Source: a virus
IMG/VR virus record: IMGVR_UViG_3300023174_000094
Location: 1-64,000 of that record
Strand: one strand, 5' to 3'
DNA length: 64,000 nt
Shown: positions 4,648 through 59,816 of the stretch, one piece after another
Numbering within the stretch: the stretch's first letter is position 1
How the letters are laid out: each line of letters begins with the position of its first letter
The notes under the pieces: model-generated
Seen by the model: the letters and a program-made list of their open reading frames with translations, nothing else
What the model was told of the DNA's origin: nothing
The model's database searches: none
Translations under genes and position numbers: made by a program

Positions 4648-6042
4648 TTATTTAAGCGGATCTCTATACTTAATCTTGCGAATAGAAACCATTGATTTGT
4701 CAATATTTGCATTCCCATCAGTTATAGGTCCACCAACAACCCAAGCATCACAGGTTCTTTGTCCTGCACACTTAAAGTCAAAAATTTCGCAATATCCGAG
4801 GTTTGCTATGTTGATTACAGCATAGGCGATATCTTCACCGCCAAGACCTTCAGCCATAGCCTCTTTCATATAAGATGTTTGAATAAAAGCCGCACAATTT
4901 TTGCATCGTGCAGTTTTTGCTTCTTCAACTGTGGTATGAAAAATATCTGCTTTTCTTTGCCAGAACTCTGTATTTTCAAGAGCTGGATTCATTGGTCCAT
5001 ATGCAGCTTTATCAATAGCTTCTTGTCTATAAGATATATTTACCTCAATGTCTTGTGTAGCTGCTGGATATCCATTAATCATTTCTTCTGATTTTCCCAT
5101 TTCGGAATCATCAGACATATCTTCATTATCTACTTGAACAACTCCATCTGATATAATTGCAAATCGGCACTTACCTTCGCTCTCAACTTGTTGAGCAATA
5201 ATTTTACAAACACCATTGCCATCATACAAAACGCAATTTGAACACTTAACACCAATATCTTTTACATCATTCTCTTCTGGTGAATCATAACCAGCCCAGA
5301 TACCAGTCTGGTCTTCATTGAACTTACCATACAGGTTAGCAAGCATGGTCAACATGTCGGCAAGAACAGCTTCTTCCTGCGCCAAATCCTCGGCTACCTT
5401 CTCTACTGAATCAATTGATTTTGAAACCGTTCTGTAACCACCACCACGCTTTTTATATTCACGGACAAGCCATGCATTTGCGTAGGCGGATGGATAAACA
5501 TCAAACTTCGCTTTAGCCTCAGCCTTGACTCGGGCATAAAGGGCTGGGTTTGTCGGAACATTGCGAGATGCTTTCTCAACCTGTGTTGAAACATTGATCG
5601 GCTTCTTATCTTCCCTGGTTTGGGATGATTCAGCTGTGCGCTTACGCCTAACGGCTGATGCGATTTGCTCAGGTGTCATTCTTGCAGCACGAGCGGCTGG
5701 AACACATTTTGGATACTTACCAGAACTTGCATCTGCTCTACCGCATGGCTCAAATCCACCACCAGCTTTTGGTCTTGAAAGATCAACCCATTTTTCTTTA
5801 AACCACTGGGTGAGACTTTTTTGAACCATGTATAGATCAATTACATCTTCTGATAATTGTAGGGCTAATTCTTCTGTTGTTTTTTCAAATTTAAATTCAC
5901 CCATAGCAGTTGCTTGAGCAAGAGCTTTTTTTCTTGCGTCAGTCATTGATTTCTTATTTCCCTGAGTGTATGTATAACAAGCTCCAGAATCACCCCATTT
6001 ATAACCTGGCTTACCATCTTTTGAGCAATTATTAATCGGCAT
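4648..6042 (-). CDS. Multi-domain Cys-rich protein (DUF5872-like modules plus two HiPIP-like CxxC modules)
   Basis: WFKEKWVD..PCGR..YPKCVP; PTNPALYARVK..YPSAYA..EYKKRGG; CSNC..C..C; CKNC..YC..C..CDAW. Confidence 0.7.
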   Translation of the reverse strand: MPINNCSKDGKPGYKWGDSGACYTYTQGNKKSMTDARKKALAQATAMGEFKFEKTTEELALQLSEDVIDLYMVQKSLTQWFKEKWVDLSRPKAGGGFEPCGRADASSGKYPKCVPAARAARMTPEQIASAVRRKRTAESSQTREDKKPINVSTQVEKASRNVPTNPALYARVKAEAKAKFDVYPSAYANAWLVREYKKRGGGYRTVSKSIDSVEKVAEDLAQEEAVLADMLTMLANLYGKFNEDQTGIWAGYDSPEENDVKDIGVKCSNCVLYDGNGVCKIIAQQVESEGKCRFAIISDGVVQVDNEDMSDDSEMGKSEEMINGYPAATQDIEVNISYRQEAIDKAAYGPMNPALENTEFWQRKADIFHTTVEEAKTARCKNCAAFIQTSYMKEAMAEGLGGEDIAYAVINIANLGYCEIFDFKCAGQRTCDAWVVGGPITDGNANIDKSMVSIRKIKYRDPLK

Positions 6043-10362: not shown

Positions 10363-10695
10363 ATGTCGTCAGATATGATTAAAAGTAAAAAACTTTGGGT
10401 TCCAGAAAGAAGATATGGAGTTTGTGTCTACTTTACAAAAGATGGCGAAGCTTTGTCCGATGGCGATGGAGTTCTTTCAGCAGAAGGTATTGTTGATGAC
10501 CCATCCATTGAAAGAAGAGTCCTTCAGGCTGGTAAGTACTGGTCAGGCGATGATGACGGATATATTAGATGGGTTGCTGGTGCTAGAAAAATTAGTGCAT
10601 CTGAAAGAGATGATCAAACAGAAAGATTAGCTGCAGGTTTTGTAGCTGACCCTTATGAAGACATGTTTGATGAGCACTTTGGAAATAGGGGTTAA
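10363..10695 (+). CDS. Hypothetical protein upstream of portal, leaderless
   Basis: TATAAT 7 nt before the ATG. Confidence 0.7.
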   Translation: MSSDMIKSKKLWVPERRYGVCVYFTKDGEALSDGDGVLSAEGIVDDPSIERRVLQAGKYWSGDDDGYIRWVAGARKISASERDDQTERLAAGFVADPYEDMFDEHFGNRG

Positions 10696-10696
10696 C

Positions 10697-12331
10697 ATGG
10701 AAAGAAAAATGGAAGTTGTTGAAGACTTTATTGTTGAAAATGAAATAGATGATATTTCATATATTGGCAATCTTGAAAAAGTAGAAGAGTATGATCCTTT
10801 TGATTCCGTAAAAATTTCTACGCTATCGCCAAAAATGAAAAGAAAAGCGCAAAGGCTTCAGAAGAAGCATGAAGGTGCTGATGGCACTCCATCTAAATAT
10901 ATTGATCCAGAAAGAGTTAGTGGTTATTCGCTTTATGACATTGTAAATCCACCTTATGACTTAGATACGCTTGCTGGTCTTTACGATCAAAGTTCAATTC
11001 ATTACGCTGCAATTAACGCTAGGGTTATGAACACTGTAGGTCTTGGTTATAGTTTTACTGAAACACTGAAGGCAAAAAGAAAGATTGAAAGAGCTCAAGA
11101 TGATCCAGCAAAGCTAGAGCGTGTAAGAAATTCAATGCAGGATCTTAAAGAAGGTCTTGACGAACTTTTTGAAAATTTAAATGTTGAAGAAACACTTATT
11201 GAAACACTAGTCCGTGTCTGGCAAGATGTTTTGACTGTGGGTAATGGATACCTGGAAATCGGTAGAAACAATTCGGGTCAGATTGGCTACATTGGTCATG
11301 TTCCAGCAACATTGGTTCGTGTAAGAAGAAAGCGTGATGGCTATGTGCAGATTGCAAAAAGCAATAAGATTCAAGCAGTCTTCTTTAGGCAGTTTCAAGA
11401 TAAAGAAACTCAAGATCCAATTAATAACGATCCAAAGCCGAACGAGTTAATTCACTTTAAAATTTATTCACCAAACAATACTTACTACGGTGTTCCTGCA
11501 GCCGTTTCTGCAGCGGCGGCAATTATCGGAGACAAGTTTGCAAAGGAATACAATATTGACTACTTTGAAAATAAAGCTATCCCTCGCTATGCAATTATTT
11601 TAAAGGGTGCAAAGCTGAGTAACAAGTCTAAAATGGAATTGATTAACTACTTTAGAAATGAAGTTAAAGGTCGTAATCATGGAACTTTGGTTATACCAAT
11701 TCCGTCAAGCATCGGTTCAGATGCAGATATTAAATTTGAAAAGCTTGAAGCTGGAGTGCAAGATGCTTCTTTTGATAAGTATCGTAAATCAAACAGAGAT
11801 GAAATTCTTGTAGCAAACAGAGTGCCAGCTCCAAAGGTTGGAGTTTATGATAACGCTAACCTGGCAGTGTCAAGAGATGCGGATAAGAGTTTTAAGATGC
11901 AAGTAATTGGACCAGATCAAGCTGTTATTGAAAAGAAGCTTAATAGATTGATTGCAGAGTTTACAGATATGGTTCAGATCAAACTAAACAAGATTGATCT
12001 TATTGATGAAGATATTCAATCAAGAATTAATGATAGATATCTTAGAACAGAAGTTATTACACCTAATGAGGTTAGATCACAAATTGGTCTTCCTGAAAGA
12101 ACAGAGGGTGATGATGTTCTTCCTTTCCCAACCAATGTTAAGAAAGAGCAAAACGAATCTGGAAATACTGGACCAGGTGCTCCAGTAGGAAATTCTAATA
12201 ATGACTCTGCTAATCCGCCAAAGTCACCAACTGGTGATGGCGCAACCAGTGATCCTAGAGCTGATGGCGCTCAAGCCGAGCGTGGTCAGAATCAAGACAA
12301 TGGTACTAATAATGATTCAGGAGGTAACTGA
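10697..12331 (+). CDS. Portal protein
   Basis: GNGYLEI.R, ELIHFK..P...YYGVP, YFENKAIP and ITPNEVR..IGL; position before the protease. Confidence 0.93.
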   Translation: MERKMEVVEDFIVENEIDDISYIGNLEKVEEYDPFDSVKISTLSPKMKRKAQRLQKKHEGADGTPSKYIDPERVSGYSLYDIVNPPYDLDTLAGLYDQSSIHYAAINARVMNTVGLGYSFTETLKAKRKIERAQDDPAKLERVRNSMQDLKEGLDELFENLNVEETLIETLVRVWQDVLTVGNGYLEIGRNNSGQIGYIGHVPATLVRVRRKRDGYVQIAKSNKIQAVFFRQFQDKETQDPINNDPKPNELIHFKIYSPNNTYYGVPAAVSAAAAIIGDKFAKEYNIDYFENKAIPRYAIILKGAKLSNKSKMELINYFRNEVKGRNHGTLVIPIPSSIGSDADIKFEKLEAGVQDASFDKYRKSNRDEILVANRVPAPKVGVYDNANLAVSRDADKSFKMQVIGPDQAVIEKKLNRLIAEFTDMVQIKLNKIDLIDEDIQSRINDRYLRTEVITPNEVRSQIGLPERTEGDDVLPFPTNVKKEQNESGNTGPGAPVGNSNNDSANPPKSPTGDGATSDPRADGAQAERGQNQDNGTNNDSGGN

Positions 12332-12591
12332 TGAGTGAAATGTCAATGGTATTTTCAATGCCAAATGTTACAAGTAGTAATGGTGTTGTGTCCATTGGGT
12401 CACATACATCTGAAATAGGGTTTATGAACCAATCTGCAGATTTTGCAGATATTAAATTAAATGGAAAATTTATTGTAAAAATTGGTCATGGACAAACGGA
12501 GGCGCATTTTTATAATGTGTTTGCAGGGGATTATACAACTTTTGAAATTCTTACCGCAAATACTGTAATATCAATGTATGCCCTTGGTTAA
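12331..12591 (+). CDS. Small beta-rich virion protein, paralog A
   Basis: Clear paralog of the next gene; GGAGG SD. Confidence 0.7.
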   Translation: MSEMSMVFSMPNVTSSNGVVSIGSHTSEIGFMNQSADFADIKLNGKFIVKIGHGQTEAHFYNVFAGDYTTFEILTANTVISMYALG

Positions 12592-12600
12592 GGAGGAAAA

Positions 12601-12867
12601 ATGGATTTTGGAAGTTTAGTATATTCAAACACTGGTATTACAAGCTCAAGTGGTGTCGTCAATATTGGAAGTCATACAAATGCTATTCATTTGTGTAATT
12701 TAAATTCAACAACATCTGCAAGCGTTAATCTTAATGGGAGATACACTGTTTTGTGCCCCCATACACCATCTCAGTCATCTGCTAGATATATTCAAATATT
12801 TGGCGATTACACAACTGTTGAAGTATTAACAGCAAATTGCACTATTGCTTTATTTGCTATTGGATAA
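12601..12867 (+). CDS. Small beta-rich virion protein, paralog B
   Basis: Shares GVV.IGSHT and GDYTT.E.LTAN with paralog A; AGGAGG SD. Confidence 0.7.
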   Translation: MDFGSLVYSNTGITSSSGVVNIGSHTNAIHLCNLNSTTSASVNLNGRYTVLCPHTPSQSSARYIQIFGDYTTVEVLTANCTIALFAIG

Positions 12868-12916: not shown

Positions 12917-15265
12917 ATGACTGATTTTAATATTTCATTCCCTATTGATATGATCAAAAAGGAACAACGAATTGTGAGTGGTATTGCTACCGCAGATAAT
13001 ATTGACAAATCTAACGATATTGTTGATTTTGAGGCTTCAAAAGAAGCTTTTGCTAATTGGGGTGGAAATATTCGTGAAATGCATGCGCCAATTGCTGTTG
13101 GCAAGGCTGTTAATTATGAGCCAGTAACAATTACTGACAAAGATGGAAACACATATAATGCTTTTAAGGTAGAGGCATATATCTCAAAAGGTGCCGAGGA
13201 TACTTGGCAAAAAGTCCTTGATGGCACTCTTCGTTCTTTTTCTATTGGCGGAAAAGTCATTAAAAAAGAAGAGATGGCTAATAAAATGTACAATGGAAGA
13301 CCGATTAATATTATTAAAAAATATGTTCTAGGCGAACTTAGCCTTGTAGATAACCCAGCAAATGCTTTAGCGGTTATTGACCTTGTAAAAATGAATAACG
13401 AGGGTGGTTTAAATTACGCTCTTGATTGCGATTTGGATTGTCAATTAGCAAAAGCAAAACAACCTTTGAAAGACCCTAAGGGTGGATTGACAGCTGCTGG
13501 AAGAAGACATTTTAAAGAAACAGAGGGTGCCAATCTAAAACCAGGCGTTAGAGGTGCAGCAGATACTCCAGAAAAAATGCGCCGCAAAGGTTCATTCTTG
13601 ACTAGATTTTTTACCAATCCATCTGGTCCAATGAAAAAGCCAAACGGTGAGCCAACAAGGCTTGCCCTCTCAGCAGCAGCTTGGGGTGAACCTATTCCTC
13701 AAAATGCTCAAGATGCGGCTGAATTAGCCGCTAAAGGAAGAAGATTGTTAGAGCGATATCAGAATACTAAAGAAAAATTTGATATTGAGAATGAATTTGA
13801 AAATATTACTCTTGAAGAGTCAATACTTAAAGGAATTGCGGATCAATTAGAGGATTGCGACTGTGGTTGTGGTTCTTGCGGTAATTTAGAAAAAGATGGT
13901 CTTGGTGCTGGCGGTGGGTCTCCAGCTGTTTCTGTAAGTACAGACAATTCTGAGTCAAAGTATCCATCACGAAACGGGATTAAAAGCCCAACAATTCCTG
14001 GATTCCCTTCTGGTTATCCAAAGTTTAGATCAAAAAGGAAAAAGAAGAAGGAGAAAAATATGAATAGTGAAGATCCTATCAGTAAAGAGGTGAGTGGTGT
14101 GAACAGTACCGTTGCATCACTTCAGGAGCTCCTTGCGAATATGACTGTATTTTATGCGTCAGCTCATAGAGCTCACTGGAATGTAGAAGGTGTTGACTTT
14201 GCTCAATATCATGAGCTTTTTGGAGAAATTTATGAAGATGCTTATGGTTCAATAGATCCAACAGCAGAGCTTGTAAGAAAGCTTGGCGCATTCCCTCCGA
14301 CACTCTCAGAATCTGAGGATATGGCTATGTTTGAGGATGATTCATCCACTACTAGCGCAAGAGATTTAGCTATGGATCTTTACATAAAAAATATGGGTCT
14401 CCTTGCAGTTCTTAAGTCTGTTTTTGATGTAGCAAATGCTGCAAATGAGCAAGGTGTTGCAAACTTTGTTGCGGAAAGAATTGATATGCATCAGAAATGG
14501 GACTGGCAGCTTTTGGCTACCCTTAGAGTTGATGGCGTTCAAATCCCTTCTTTAGTTGAAGATGACACTGAAGAAAACGACACTGAAGAACCAACCGCTA
14601 GAGACATCATGAATATGATTAATGATGTTTTTGGTAGTTCAACAAATAAGTCTTTTAATGCACAAACTGTTAAAGAATTTGATACAATTGATCAAGAAGA
14701 AAATAAAAATATGGAATCAATTATTAAGCAAGATATTGAATTGCAGGAAAACAATAATTATGATAAGATCTCTGACATGAATGAACAAGAAGCAAATAAG
14801 CTTAGTCTTTTGAAGAAGTTTGTTGGTTGGTTGTTCCAAGATGTCAAGGAAACAACTTCAACTTCCGTTGAAGTAAGTGGAAACACACAGGAGGAAGAAA
14901 TGGATATTAACATCCTTAAAGACGCTCTGAGTGCTGTTGTTGATGAAAAACTGGCTAGTTTTGCTACTTCAATCAAGGAAGAAGTTGAAGCCTCTGTTCA
15001 GGAAAAAATTGAAGCAGTTGCTAAGAGTTTTGAAGTTCAGAGTGCTGAACTGCAACAAAAGCTGGAAACAGCAGAGCTTGCTCTATCAGAGCAAACAGAA
15101 AAAGTTGAGGCATTTGCCGCAGCTGGCGCTGTAAAGAAAAGCGTAGATCCAGAAGACGCTGAAGAAGAGGAGGGTGAAGCACTTATTAAGTCAGCTCCAA
15201 CTTCTTTCTGGAAGAATACATATTTGCCACAGGAGTTAATTAACTCCCTAGGTTATAGGTCATAA
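12917..15265 (+). CDS. HK97-type prohead protease fused to DUF6321-like, Dps/ferritin-like and scaffold domains
   Basis: IREMH, SFSIGG, ELSLVDNPAN (protease); DPKGGLTAAGR..NLKPGV; AHWNVEG..YHELF..DPTAE (Dps); C-terminal coiled coil. Confidence 0.88.
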   Translation: MTDFNISFPIDMIKKEQRIVSGIATADNIDKSNDIVDFEASKEAFANWGGNIREMHAPIAVGKAVNYEPVTITDKDGNTYNAFKVEAYISKGAEDTWQKVLDGTLRSFSIGGKVIKKEEMANKMYNGRPINIIKKYVLGELSLVDNPANALAVIDLVKMNNEGGLNYALDCDLDCQLAKAKQPLKDPKGGLTAAGRRHFKETEGANLKPGVRGAADTPEKMRRKGSFLTRFFTNPSGPMKKPNGEPTRLALSAAAWGEPIPQNAQDAAELAAKGRRLLERYQNTKEKFDIENEFENITLEESILKGIADQLEDCDCGCGSCGNLEKDGLGAGGGSPAVSVSTDNSESKYPSRNGIKSPTIPGFPSGYPKFRSKRKKKKEKNMNSEDPISKEVSGVNSTVASLQELLANMTVFYASAHRAHWNVEGVDFAQYHELFGEIYEDAYGSIDPTAELVRKLGAFPPTLSESEDMAMFEDDSSTTSARDLAMDLYIKNMGLLAVLKSVFDVANAANEQGVANFVAERIDMHQKWDWQLLATLRVDGVQIPSLVEDDTEENDTEEPTARDIMNMINDVFGSSTNKSFNAQTVKEFDTIDQEENKNMESIIKQDIELQENNNYDKISDMNEQEANKLSLLKKFVGWLFQDVKETTSTSVEVSGNTQEEEMDINILKDALSAVVDEKLASFATSIKEEVEASVQEKIEAVAKSFEVQSAELQQKLETAELALSEQTEKVEAFAAAGAVKKSVDPEDAEEEEGEALIKSAPTSFWKNTYLPQELINSLGYRS
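14741..14779 (+). promoter_or_regulatory. Internal promoter with in-frame leaderless ATG (scaffold)
   Basis: TTGCAG(14741)-17-TAAGAT(14764) with TG extension, 7 nt to in-frame ATG 14777. Confidence 0.6.
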
Positions 15266-15285: not shown

Positions 15286-16332
15286 ATGGCAACACAAGAA
15301 GAAATTTTGGCGAAAGCCAATGAAGTAACAACTACGGTTGTTTCAAATAGCAGCCCAGTAAGCGGTGGTGGTGGTCTTCTCTACCCAGAGCAGGCAAACC
15401 GTTTCTTGGACTTCATCGTGGATCAGTCGGTTCTCATGCAGAACGCAAGAGTGGTTCGTATGCGTACACCTCAGATGGACATTGATAAGGTGTCTGTTGG
15501 TACTCGTTTGCTTGCAAAAGCAACTGAAGCAACCGATGATGGTGCAAACGCAGCAGTAACATTCAGCAAGGTTTCGCTTTCAACTGTAAAGCTCCGTCTT
15601 GACTGGAACATTTCAACAGAATCGTTGGAAGACAACATTGAAGGTGCATCGTTGGAAGACCATATCGCACAGATCATGGCTCGCCAGACTGCAAACGACA
15701 TGGATGACCTCTTCATTAACGGTAACACATCGTCAAACAACGGTCTCTTGAAGGCTCTTGATGGCTTTAACAAGTTGGCAAGAACATCGGGTCGTGTTGT
15801 AGATTTCGCTGGAAACAATGTTTCTAGAGCAACTTATGACAAGATTCTCCGTAACTTGCCAAGCAAGTACTTGCAGCGCCGTAATGAACTGAGATTCTTC
15901 TCAGGTCCAGGTGTTGTTCAGGACTCAATCTACAGCTTGGGTAATCCAAACTCGGCAACTGACGCAACAGCAGGCGCACCTGCTCCAATGTCAACGGCTG
16001 GTGAAATGGCATTCTTGCAAGGTTCAATGAGAGCAAATGGTGGTCCAGGTGCAACTGGTCTTGCACCATTTGGTATTAACCTCATTGAAGTGCCTTTGAT
16101 GCCAGAAACGGCAGCTGGTGACTACTCAGGAACAGCTGGTTCGCATGGTTTCGTGGAACTTACATTCCCTAACAACCGTGTAATCGGTATCCACCGTGAC
16201 ATCACAGTGTACCGCCAGTTCAAGCCAAAGACTGACACAATTGAGTACACACAGTACATGAGAGTAGCAAACAACATTGAAAATGCTGATTCATATGTAA
16301 TCGGTAAGAATGTTAAGTTGCGCACACTCTAA
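15286..16332 (+). CDS. Major capsid protein (HK97 fold)
   Basis: GGLLYPEQANRF, ESLEDNIEG and DLFINGN; strong SD; high-expression codon bias; terminator follows. Confidence 0.93.
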   Translation: MATQEEILAKANEVTTTVVSNSSPVSGGGGLLYPEQANRFLDFIVDQSVLMQNARVVRMRTPQMDIDKVSVGTRLLAKATEATDDGANAAVTFSKVSLSTVKLRLDWNISTESLEDNIEGASLEDHIAQIMARQTANDMDDLFINGNTSSNNGLLKALDGFNKLARTSGRVVDFAGNNVSRATYDKILRNLPSKYLQRRNELRFFSGPGVVQDSIYSLGNPNSATDATAGAPAPMSTAGEMAFLQGSMRANGGPGATGLAPFGINLIEVPLMPETAAGDYSGTAGSHGFVELTFPNNRVIGIHRDITVYRQFKPKTDTIEYTQYMRVANNIENADSYVIGKNVKLRTL

Positions 16333-59533: not shown

Positions 59534-59816
59534 TTGGCTAAACGAAGCTGTCTGTGCAAATGATGAACGACCAACAGCTTGGCTATCGTATGACATTAGC
59601 GATATACAATACGCCAAGCTTGGTTGTTCTAAATGCACTGTGAGAAAGCAATGCATTCTTAATGCATTTCGTAATGACCCATATGTAGGTGTAAACGCAG
59701 GGATATCCGAGTATGACTTTTTAATGCTTACTTGGAAGGAGGCTACAAAAGTAAATGGAAGTAACTGGAGCAGAGCTGATAAAGTTCTTCAAGGAATCGT
59801 GCGACAAGTCAAATAA
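59517..59816 (+). CDS. whiB: WhiB family transcription factor
   Basis: W...A.C...AK..C..C.V...C...A......GV.AG; four Cys. Confidence 0.82.
   Translation: MKAQSDWLNEAVCANDERPTAWLSYDISDIQYAKLGCSKCTVRKQCILNAFRNDPYVGVNAGISEYDFLMLTWKEATKVNGSNWSRADKVLQGIVRQVK

What the first reader, a model, noticed from the sequence alone, without database searches (positions are those of the whole stretch)
12917..15265. Prohead protease-scaffold polyprotein carrying a Dps (mini-ferritin) domain
Seen: one ORF encodes an HK97 protease (~12917-13390), a DUF6321-like module (~13455-13770), a CDCGCGSC motif, a basic KFRSKRKKKKEK stretch, a Dps domain (~14110-14530) and a scaffold coiled coil. The Dps ferroxidase ligands look intact (AHWNV, YHELF, DPTAE). 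Established: Dps binds DNA through Lys-rich tails, sequesters Fe and limits Fenton damage; protease/scaffold proteins are built into the procapsid; encapsulins are HK97-fold shells that load ferritin-like cargo. Inference: the phage uses its scaffold to load Dps into the head, protecting packaged DNA from oxidative damage or delivering an iron sink at infection. An AAGGAG-6-ATG at 14060 may also yield a Dps-scaffold form without the protease.
Basis: partly seen in the sequence, partly recalled or inferred. Interest (0 to 1): 0.88.

Follow-up and report, generated by a model that had tools for sequence, protein, structure and literature searches.

The report
Phage scaffold carrying Dps mini-ferritin
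An uncultured 107-kb lake phage, probably of actinobacteria, has an intact iron-oxidising Dps "mini-ferritin" built into the protein that carries its capsid protease and scaffold, so the enzyme is very probably loaded into each new head as optional cargo, much as encapsulins load ferritin; nobody has measured this.

Summary
ORF 12917-15265 (782 aa) lies between the portal and major capsid genes. It reads: prohead protease, DUF6321, Cys motif, Lys-rich linker, Dps, acidic region, long helix, conserved C-tail. The Dps call rests on Pfam, PDB sequence matches and a confident model (TM 0.91 to B. brevis Dps). It keeps His420, His432, Asp447 and Glu451 and is under purifying selection (dN/dS 0.01-0.14).

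The fusion is not an artefact: 45 of 120 close homologs carry it. Relatives 96% identical in the flanks lack it, with the indel starting right after the internal Met.

AAGGAG-6-ATG at 14060 is conserved. Relatives with no Met there encode the same Lys-Glu run as AAA-GAA. This points to a nested Dps-scaffold product of 45 kDa, as in lambda C/Nu3.

The same Dps type sits in head modules of two other phage lineages. It is also embedded in many head-protease or MuF polyproteins in metagenomes.

Loading into the procapsid is well supported by inference. Retention in virions, iron chemistry and DNA protection are untested. The Lys-rich run is not a Dps-specific tail, and the Dps domain is very acidic.

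I found no published description. This scan has already noted similar fusions on other genomes.

The parts
10655..12331 (+). Portal protein gene (context: start of the head module)
   Evidence: phrog_12 portal protein, 1.5e-55
12917..15265 (+). Whole polyprotein ORF: 782 aa, 86 kDa, pI 4.7
   Evidence: full-length homologs at 57-81% identity
12917..13411 (+). Prohead serine protease domain (aa 1-165). His56 and Ser109 are invariant in the family.
   Evidence: phrog_9427 4e-50; Pfam S78 just below cut-off; 50% identity to Streptomyces phage LilMartin gp46; invariant columns
13469..13684 (+). DUF6321 module (aa 185-256): basic, almost invariant across the family, poorly modelled
   Evidence: Pfam 2e-28; near-invariant columns; pLDDT 33-52
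13853..14059 (+). Disordered linker (aa 313-381) holding CDCGCGSC (13856-13879) and the Lys-rich run (14021-14056)
   Evidence: pLDDT 25-31 over most of it; motif positions
14048..14062 (+). Internal ribosome-binding site AAGGAG, 6-nt spacer, in-frame ATG (Met382): predicted start of a nested Dps-scaffold product
   Evidence: AAG-GAG occurs wherever an ATG follows (7 distinct variants). AAA-GAA occurs in 15/15 variants with no ATG.
14105..14536 (+). Dps mini-ferritin domain (aa 397-540). Ligands His420 (14174), His432, Asp447, Glu451.
14537..14905 (+). Acidic, mostly disordered middle region (aa 541-663, net -20) with short helices
14906..15121 (+). Single 72-residue helix (aa 664-735): the scaffold core
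   Evidence: weak alignment to the C-terminal half of LilMartin gp46
15122..15262 (+). C-terminal tail with the invariant KKSVDPED motif and an invariant last ~24 residues: candidate capsid-binding end
   Evidence: invariant columns K740-E746 and K758-S782; unique in the genome
15286..16332 (+). Major capsid protein gene (context)
   Evidence: phrog_1623 6e-80; 52% identity to Streptomyces phage major capsid proteins
13705..14674 (+). Approximate limits of the variable cassette region (aa ~263-586) that is replaced in relatives
   Evidence: a relative's contig replaces 13705-14674 with 623 other bases; architecture table

Best explanation
The ORF is the phage's combined head-maturation protease and scaffolding protein. 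Between the two it has a region of interchangeable cassettes, and in this phage the slot next to the scaffold holds an intact Dps ferroxidase.

Proposed mechanism:
(1) The gene gives two products, as in lambda C/Nu3. One is the full 86-kDa protease-DUF6321-linker-Dps-scaffold. The other, from the strong internal AAGGAG-ATG at 14060, is a more abundant 45-kDa Dps-scaffold.
(2) Both share the long C-terminal helix and conserved tail. These co-assemble with the major capsid protein around the portal, which places Dps inside the procapsid.
(3) The protease then cuts the disordered linkers. Small acidic pieces leave. The folded Dps, possibly assembled as 12-mers, is too large and too stable to leave, and stays with the DNA.
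(4) There it oxidises and stores Fe(II) using H2O2 or O2, limiting Fenton damage to the packaged genome in sunlit, oxygenated lake water. It may also enter the host with the DNA.

Shown: the gene, the domains, ligand conservation, purifying selection, the optional-cassette behaviour, the conserved internal start signal, and recurrence in head modules. Inferred: the two products, encapsidation, cleavage, retention and chemistry.
For: Gene order portal - polyprotein - capsid protein matches Streptomyces phage LilMartin, whose 423-aa 'capsid maturation protease' aligns at both ends and has no cargo.

Dps identity. His/His/Asp/Glu are kept in 45/45 family members and are invariant in 84 diverse long representatives. 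dN/dS is 0.009-0.14, similar to the protease.

Optional cassette: 45 of 120 homologs carry Dps. L069 (695 aa) and L077 (535 aa) are 96% identical in the flanks, and the indel starts right after the internal Met.

Internal start: AAGGAG-6-ATG is invariant in divergent lineages while the codons between vary. In L002 it sits right before the Dps. Relatives with no Met encode Lys-Glu as AAA-GAA in 15/15 variants. The gene's own start has only GAGG. A 399-aa Dps-scaffold representative starts at the equivalent Met.

Independent lineages: ~174-kb phages have portal - 170 aa - 912 aa - Dps+tail - 510 aa - capsid protein, and a ~126-kb lineage has portal followed by Dps with a 220-aa tail.

Metagenome-wide: 97 of the 150 best representatives are over 300 aa. 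Of 84 scanned, 24 hit Peptidase_S78, 27 hit head-maturation-protease phrog_80, and 2 hit Phage_Mu_F.

[quoted passage not shown] 'Protease with nested scaffold gene' is described for phage 0305phi8-36 (PMC2147016).
Against: There are no protein-level data for this phage or any relative.

Scaffolds are normally expelled or degraded, so Dps might be lost at maturation.

The Dps domain and the whole nested product are very acidic (net -14 and -48). That favours expulsion by incoming DNA and argues against DNA binding.

The fifth ferroxidase-site residue is Gly436 here.

Close relatives do well without Dps, so any benefit is conditional.

The count of AAGGAG-N5-9-ATG in the window is not enriched over chance by itself (6 against 3.3 expected).

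One Dps-bearing variant (L075) and the P0086 type lack the internal start signal.

Standalone homologs in other phages lie outside head modules.
Confidence: 0.6

Rival explanations
1. Dps serves assembly, not chemistry. Its dimer or 12-mer interfaces bundle scaffold arms into a hub that nucleates or sizes the procapsid. The domain is then degraded or expelled, so the mature virion holds none.
For: Dps sits at the N-terminus of the predicted scaffold product. The termini of Dps lie on the outside of the 12-mer (established knowledge of Dps structures), so 12 outward scaffold arms are geometrically possible. The acidic charge resembles that of expelled scaffolds.
Against: A purely structural hub would not need all four metal ligands to be invariant across 84 diverse clusters. 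Relatives 96% identical in the flanks assemble with no Dps. The same Dps is also fused to MuF-type minor head proteins and occurs as free small genes.
Confidence: 0.15
2. The fusion is only a way to make much Dps late in infection. The domain works in the cytoplasm of the infected cell, like free phage Dps genes: it lowers free iron and peroxide while DNA is replicated and packaged, and it is not functionally encapsidated.
For: Free Dps genes of the same subfamily lie in non-structural neighbourhoods next to a metallophosphoesterase. Published readings of phage Dps are of this kind (PMC8008677, PMC6669764). The probable host group carries Fe-S WhiB regulators, and the phage encodes two.
Against: Tethering to a scaffold tail would drag the domain into procapsids. 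Fusion to head carriers arose repeatedly (protease-scaffold, scaffold-like tails in two other lineages, MuF). That is hard to explain if location in the head were irrelevant.
Confidence: 0.15
3. The fusion is an assembly or gene-calling artefact, or a decaying insertion.
For: The window comes from a metagenome assembly. The only run that spans the whole ORF in one contig is probably the source sample.
Against: Dozens of independent contigs from many samples hold the same in-frame fusion at 57-81% identity. dN/dS is far below 1. An independent run holds identical pieces of the Dps segment.
Confidence: 0.01

Closest known systems
Nested or fused protease-scaffold genes: lambda C/Nu3 (from my own knowledge), Bacillus phage 0305phi8-36 'protease with nested scaffold gene' (PMC2147016), Streptomyces phage LilMartin gp46 (423 aa)
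   Same: N-terminal prohead protease and C-terminal scaffold in one frame, between the portal and capsid genes. An in-frame internal start gives free scaffold. LilMartin gp46 is a true homolog: 50% identity in the protease and a weak match in the scaffold, including the KKS.D motif.
   Different: Those genes have no enzyme between protease and scaffold. Here 100-560 aa of interchangeable cassettes, including a complete Dps, are inserted, and the nested product would begin with Dps.
Cellular Dps mini-ferritins (B. brevis Dps 1n1q, B. subtilis MrgA 2chp, V. cholerae 3iq1, P. aeruginosa 8ff9)
   Same: Four-helix bundle with a short BC helix. His-x11-His and Asp-x3-Glu ligands. 24-32% identity, TM 0.85-0.92.
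   Different: It is embedded in a viral structural polyprotein. The second-shell acidic residue is Gly, Ala or Glu. It has a distinct C-terminal signature (ERIDMHQKWDWQL). It is very acidic, and the nested form has no basic tail.
Encapsulins with ferritin-like cargo (EncFtn/Flp, IMEF; Flp fused to the shell protein in Pyrococcus furiosus)
   Same: An HK97-fold shell encloses a ferritin-superfamily iron enzyme, which is brought in by a terminal extension that binds the shell interior.
   Different: This is a complete tailed phage (portal, tape measure, 107-kb genome), not a compartment. The cargo is Dps-type rather than Flp or IMEF. The tether is a full scaffold cut by a protease, not a short loading peptide.
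T4 internal proteins IPI-III/Alt with capsid targeting sequence; ejection proteins of SPN3US/phiKZ-like phages (PMC5694885, PMC7411985)
   Same: Non-structural proteins are built into the prohead core, trimmed by the prohead protease, kept with the DNA and ejected.
   Different: Targeting there uses a short N-terminal peptide on separate proteins. Here it would be covalent fusion to the scaffold, and no iron enzyme is known among those cargos.
Free phage Dps genes (Gratiaviridae and other gut phages, PMC8008677; Lactobacillus myophages, PMC6669764) and the ferritin-like protein found in phage G particles (bioRxiv 10.1101/2024.12.16.628780)
   Same: A phage-encoded Dps-family protein. The phage G case gives proteomic precedent for such a protein in a virion.
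   Different: Those are separate genes read as helping the infected cell. None is described as part of a protease-scaffold gene.

Membership tests
Dps (mini-ferritin) family | Four-helix bundle with a short BC helix | tested here: met
   The model has helices at 16-41, 47-74, 82-88, 100-127 and 131-157 of the segment, pLDDT 88.5. Foldseek TM 0.85-0.92 to Dps structures.
Dps (mini-ferritin) family | Inter-subunit ferroxidase ligands His, His, Asp, Glu | tested here: met
   His420, His432, Asp447 and Glu451 align with His31, His43, Asp58 and Glu62 of 1n1q. They are kept in 45/45 relatives and invariant in 84 representatives.
Dps (mini-ferritin) family | Second-shell acidic residue four positions after the second His (Glu47 of 1n1q) | tested here: not met
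   It is Gly436 here. In the family it is Gly 27, Glu 9, Ala 9. It is not a direct ligand of the high-affinity site (my own knowledge), so this weakens membership but does not exclude it.
Dps (mini-ferritin) family | Dodecamer with 23 symmetry and an iron core; ferroxidase activity | not testable with these tools
   This needs SEC-MALS or cryo-EM and iron-oxidation assays.
HK97-type prohead serine protease (Peptidase S78) | Sequence match and conserved catalytic His and Ser | tested here: met
   phrog_9427 4e-50. Pfam S78 scores 19.1 bits against a cut-off of 21. His56 and Ser109 are invariant. Their catalytic role is inferred.
Nested protease/scaffold gene (lambda C/Nu3 type) | In-frame internal start with its own ribosome-binding site, upstream of the scaffold part | tested here: met
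   AAGGAG-6-ATG at 14048-14062, conserved and linked to synonymous codon choice.
Nested protease/scaffold gene (lambda C/Nu3 type) | Two proteins are actually made, sharing a C-terminus that binds the capsid protein | not testable with these tools
   This needs protein gels, N-terminal mapping and pull-downs. Only a conserved helix and tail are seen.
Encapsulin cargo system | The HK97-fold shell forms a DNA-free compartment without portal, terminase or tail | tested here: not met
   Portal, tape measure and a complete 106.6-kb genome are present. It works like an encapsulin system but is not a member.
T4-type internal proteins | Short N-terminal capsid targeting sequence on a separate protein | tested here: not met
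   Dps here is covalently fused upstream of the scaffold. No separate gene was found.

The most novel reading that the evidence does not exclude
Mature heads of these lake phages retain tens of Dps 12-mers, which mineralise iron next to the DNA. A true tailed phage would then double as an encapsulin-like iron compartment. The Dps-scaffold chimera would be a living example of the proposed scaffold-to-cargo transition between HK97 capsids and encapsulins. It would also be a route by which viruses carry iron and a peroxide sink from cell to cell.
Probability: 0.3. Interest if true: 0.85.

Novelty: new variant of a known kind. Interest (0 to 1): 0.7.

Why it matters
Loading proteins into phage heads is known for T4 internal proteins and giant-phage ejection proteins, and engineers copy it with P22 scaffold fusions. 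A natural, widespread cassette system in which the scaffold gene itself carries swappable enzymes has not been described, as far as I could find, and Dps appears to be a frequent one.

It gives a testable link between phage procapsids and encapsulins that load ferritin-like cargo. That link bears on a 2026 proposal that the two interconvert through procapsid-like states (PMC13669383).

It also suggests that virions in sunlit, peroxide-rich lake water may carry their own iron and peroxide defence, which would affect virus decay rates and iron budgets.

Natural pairs of phages 96% identical in the flanking protein sequence, with and without Dps, make the question unusually tractable.

Tried and rejected

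A viral-contig scan with the 399-aa Dps-scaffold representative P0125 found nothing. It is therefore unknown whether that protein is a separate gene or a call on a truncated contig.

An iterative profile seeded on this protease did not reach the other S78 proteases (3 hits only). I have per-family counts but no exact union.

The count of AAGGAG-N5-9-ATG in the window is not significant on its own: 6 against 3.3 expected, and 13 of 100 shuffles reach 6.

Read laying: independent runs hold identical pieces but none bridges the junctions. Runs with small word shares were not used as evidence of habitat.

A search for other ORFs sharing the C-terminal tail, as a shared loading peptide, found none.

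The atlas look-up of DUF6321 gave only viral hypothetical clusters at score 0.82, which is below the level that means anything.

I considered the Lys-rich run as a Dps DNA-binding tail and rejected it as Dps-specific, because Dps-less relatives keep it.

I looked at hydrophobic-x-Lys cleavage sites only by eye. A conserved Lys near aa 577 and the invariant KKS and IKS near the C-terminus are candidates, but I ran no test.
Full report
**What is there.** The window is the first 64 kb of a complete 106,648-bp virus record. The run that holds the whole stretch is a lake water metagenome, probably the source sample, and an independent freshwater run holds identical pieces. ORF 12917-15265 (+) encodes 782 aa. 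It lies between the portal gene (10655-12331, phrog_12) and the major capsid gene (15286-16332, phrog_1623), with a tape measure gene further on.

Domain searches give a head maturation protease at aa 4-162 (phrog_9427, 4e-50) and DUF6321 at aa 185-256 (2e-28). They give Pfam Ferritin at aa 400-537, above its gathering score, and phrog_3636 'DNA binding protein' at aa 395-536.

**Is the middle domain really Dps?** Yes.
- The segment matches solved Dps proteins by sequence; the best is Bacillus brevis Dps 1n1q at 1.9e-15.
- A model built on 33 sequences has pLDDT 88.5 and the Dps topology of four long helices plus a short BC helix.
- It superposes on Dps 12-mer subunits at target-normalised TM 0.85-0.92 and rmsd 1.2-1.4 A over 140 columns.
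- His420, His432, Asp447 and Glu451 align with the ferroxidase ligands of 1n1q. The second-shell acidic position is Gly436.
- All 45 Dps-bearing relatives keep the four ligands. In an alignment of 84 diverse long proteins with this Dps type, these four are among the only eight invariant columns.
- Pairwise dN/dS for the module is 0.009-0.14, like the protease domain.

**Is the fusion real?** Yes. Full-length homologs at 57-81% identity come from many independent contigs of about 104-110 kb. Only the probable source run spans the ORF in one contig, so read laying adds little. However, a relative's contig replaces 13705-14674 with 623 other bases, which maps the variable region.

**A cassette slot.** Among 120 close homologs the ends are constant: protease at the N-terminus, and the acidic middle, long helix and tail at the C-terminus. 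The interior varies:
- DUF6321 is in all but one.
- A Cys-rich linker and a small CWGY motif occur in many.
- An acidic filler occurs in 24.
- DUF5872 occurs in three.
- Dps occurs in 45.

L069 (695 aa, with Dps) and L077 (535 aa, without) are 96% identical in the shared parts. The roughly 160-aa indel starts directly after a conserved internal Met. Synonymous divergence of Dps is decoupled from that of its flanks, as expected for shuffled modules.

The nearest isolates are ~130-kb Streptomyces siphophages (Stanwilliamsviridae), with the capsid protein 52% and the protease 50% identical. Their 423-aa 'capsid maturation protease' lies in the same place and has no cargo. The genome also encodes two WhiB proteins, so an actinobacterial host is likely.

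**A nested Dps-scaffold product.**
- AAGGAG, six bases and ATG 14060 lie at the end of the Lys-rich run. The ORF's own start has only GAGG.
- The same AAGGAG-6-ATG is invariant in divergent lineages with or without Dps, while the two codons between vary.
- In L002 it sits right before the Dps, although the Lys-rich run is elsewhere.
- As a control, relatives whose Lys-Lys-Glu run is not followed by Met encode it AAA-GAA in 15 of 15 distinct variants. All 7 variants followed by ATG use AAG-GAG.
- This is a signature of selection on a ribosome-binding site. It points to a lambda C/Nu3-like arrangement, a gene organisation also described for phage 0305phi8-36 (PMC2147016).
- The predicted product is 401 aa, 44.7 kDa, pI 4.2, and begins with Dps.
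- Exceptions exist: L075 and the P0086 type lack the signal.
- The window-wide count of the pattern is not significant alone.

**Shape of the protein.** The full-length model shows:
- a folded protease (aa 18-155);
- a poorly modelled DUF6321;
- a disordered linker (aa 311-395);
- a confident Dps (aa 397-538);
- a mostly disordered acidic stretch;
- one 72-residue helix (aa 664-735);
- a short C-terminal helix in an invariant tail.

The Dps domain is strongly acidic (net -14), and so is everything downstream. The Lys-rich run occurs in Dps-less relatives too, so it is not a Dps tail. In the sister clade the residues after the internal Met are Lys-rich (MKNKIKK...), so a basic tail may exist there.

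**Independent support that this Dps type belongs to heads.**
- In ~145-176-kb phages a 270-283-aa gene (Dps, acidic linker, conserved tail) lies between the portal and capsid genes, after a 912-aa multi-module protein.
- In a ~126-kb lineage with another portal family, the gene after the portal is Dps plus a 220-aa tail.
- In a search of 1.84 billion cluster representatives, 97 of the 150 best hits are over 300 aa with Dps embedded.
- Of 84 of these that I scanned, 24 match Peptidase_S78, 4 the XkdF-type protease, 1 Mu-like_Pro and 2 Phage_Mu_F. 27 match head-maturation-protease phrog_80. Others match families annotated as major head protein, portal protein, minor head protein or virion structural protein.
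- Free small versions also exist in non-structural neighbourhoods.

**Mechanism and its limits.** The best reading is that Dps is carried into the procapsid by the scaffold, freed by the protease, and kept with the DNA as an iron and peroxide sink. I rate encapsidation as likely (about 0.8), retention in the mature head as about even, and DNA protection as the leading but unproven purpose.

The rivals are a purely architectural hub, a cytoplasmic late function, and an artefact. The first is weakened by ligand invariance and dispensability. The second is weakened by repeated fusion to head carriers. The third is contradicted.

**Prior knowledge.** Free phage Dps genes are published (PMC8008677, PMC6669764). 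A ferritin-like protein was detected in phage G particles (bioRxiv 10.1101/2024.12.16.628780). The 2026 paper on HK97 viruses and encapsulins never mentions Dps, and none of the passages returned describes a scaffold-borne ferritin-like cargo (PMC13669383). Searches for DUF6321 and for protease/ferritin combinations found no description of this fusion.

This scan has already noted and followed up similar Dps fusions on other genomes, with concordant readings. I treated those as leads. The 174-kb lineage and the metagenome-wide spread were found again here independently.

What this window adds is the natural presence/absence pairs, the exact cassette limits, the codon-level evidence for the nested start at the Dps boundary, and the link to cargo-free Streptomyces phage homologs.

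Noticed in passing
window 4648-6042 (- strand): A 464-aa multi-module protein. Its DUF5872 module is 80% identical (E 2e-70) to the module that relatives (P0111) carry inside their protease-scaffold polyprotein. A Cys module is 45% identical (E 1e-22) to one in the 912-aa head-module protein of the ~174-kb lineage. So modules move between carrier proteins, and this protein may also be head cargo.
   Followed up: partly
window 59535-59714 (+), and genome 85185-85373 outside the window: Two WhiB-family genes, both above the Pfam cut-off. This is a hallmark of actinobacterial phages and fits the kinship to Streptomyces phages.
   Followed up: partly
window 12331-12591 and 12601-12867 (+): Two small paralogous ORFs (86 and 88 aa) between the portal and the polyprotein, with no PHROG match. 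The same slot holds a 'membrane protein' in Streptomyces phage LilMartin.
   Followed up: no
window 13469-13684 (DUF6321 module): This basic segment (the aa 166-262 stretch has pI 9.8) is nearly invariant across the whole family, more so than the protease, yet it is modelled with low confidence and no paper mentions it. Its role is unexplained.
   Followed up: partly
L061-L068 (viral contigs): Free 150-170-aa Dps genes of the same subfamily share a conserved N-terminal motif, WNGF(R/K)V, ahead of the Dps fold, and lie near a metallophosphoesterase. The motif could be a targeting or cleavage signal.
   Followed up: no
P0121, P0172 and other representatives: One 777-aa protein has two Dps domains in tandem. 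Others join Dps with Zeta toxin, HAD phosphatase, RelA_SpoT, 2'-5' RNA ligase or Tudor-like domains in one frame. This suggests a broad repertoire of head-polyprotein cargo.
   Followed up: partly
L146:11100-17000: Downstream of the Dps-plus-tail gene, this ~126-kb contig has very few ORFs of 80 aa or more under table 11. That could mean another genetic code, many small genes or non-coding DNA.
   Followed up: no
CWGY-type relatives, e.g. L008:6140-6166: In Dps-less CWGY-type relatives an AAGGAG lies 12 nt before the conserved Met at the start of the acidic middle region. The nested start may have moved there.
   Followed up: partly
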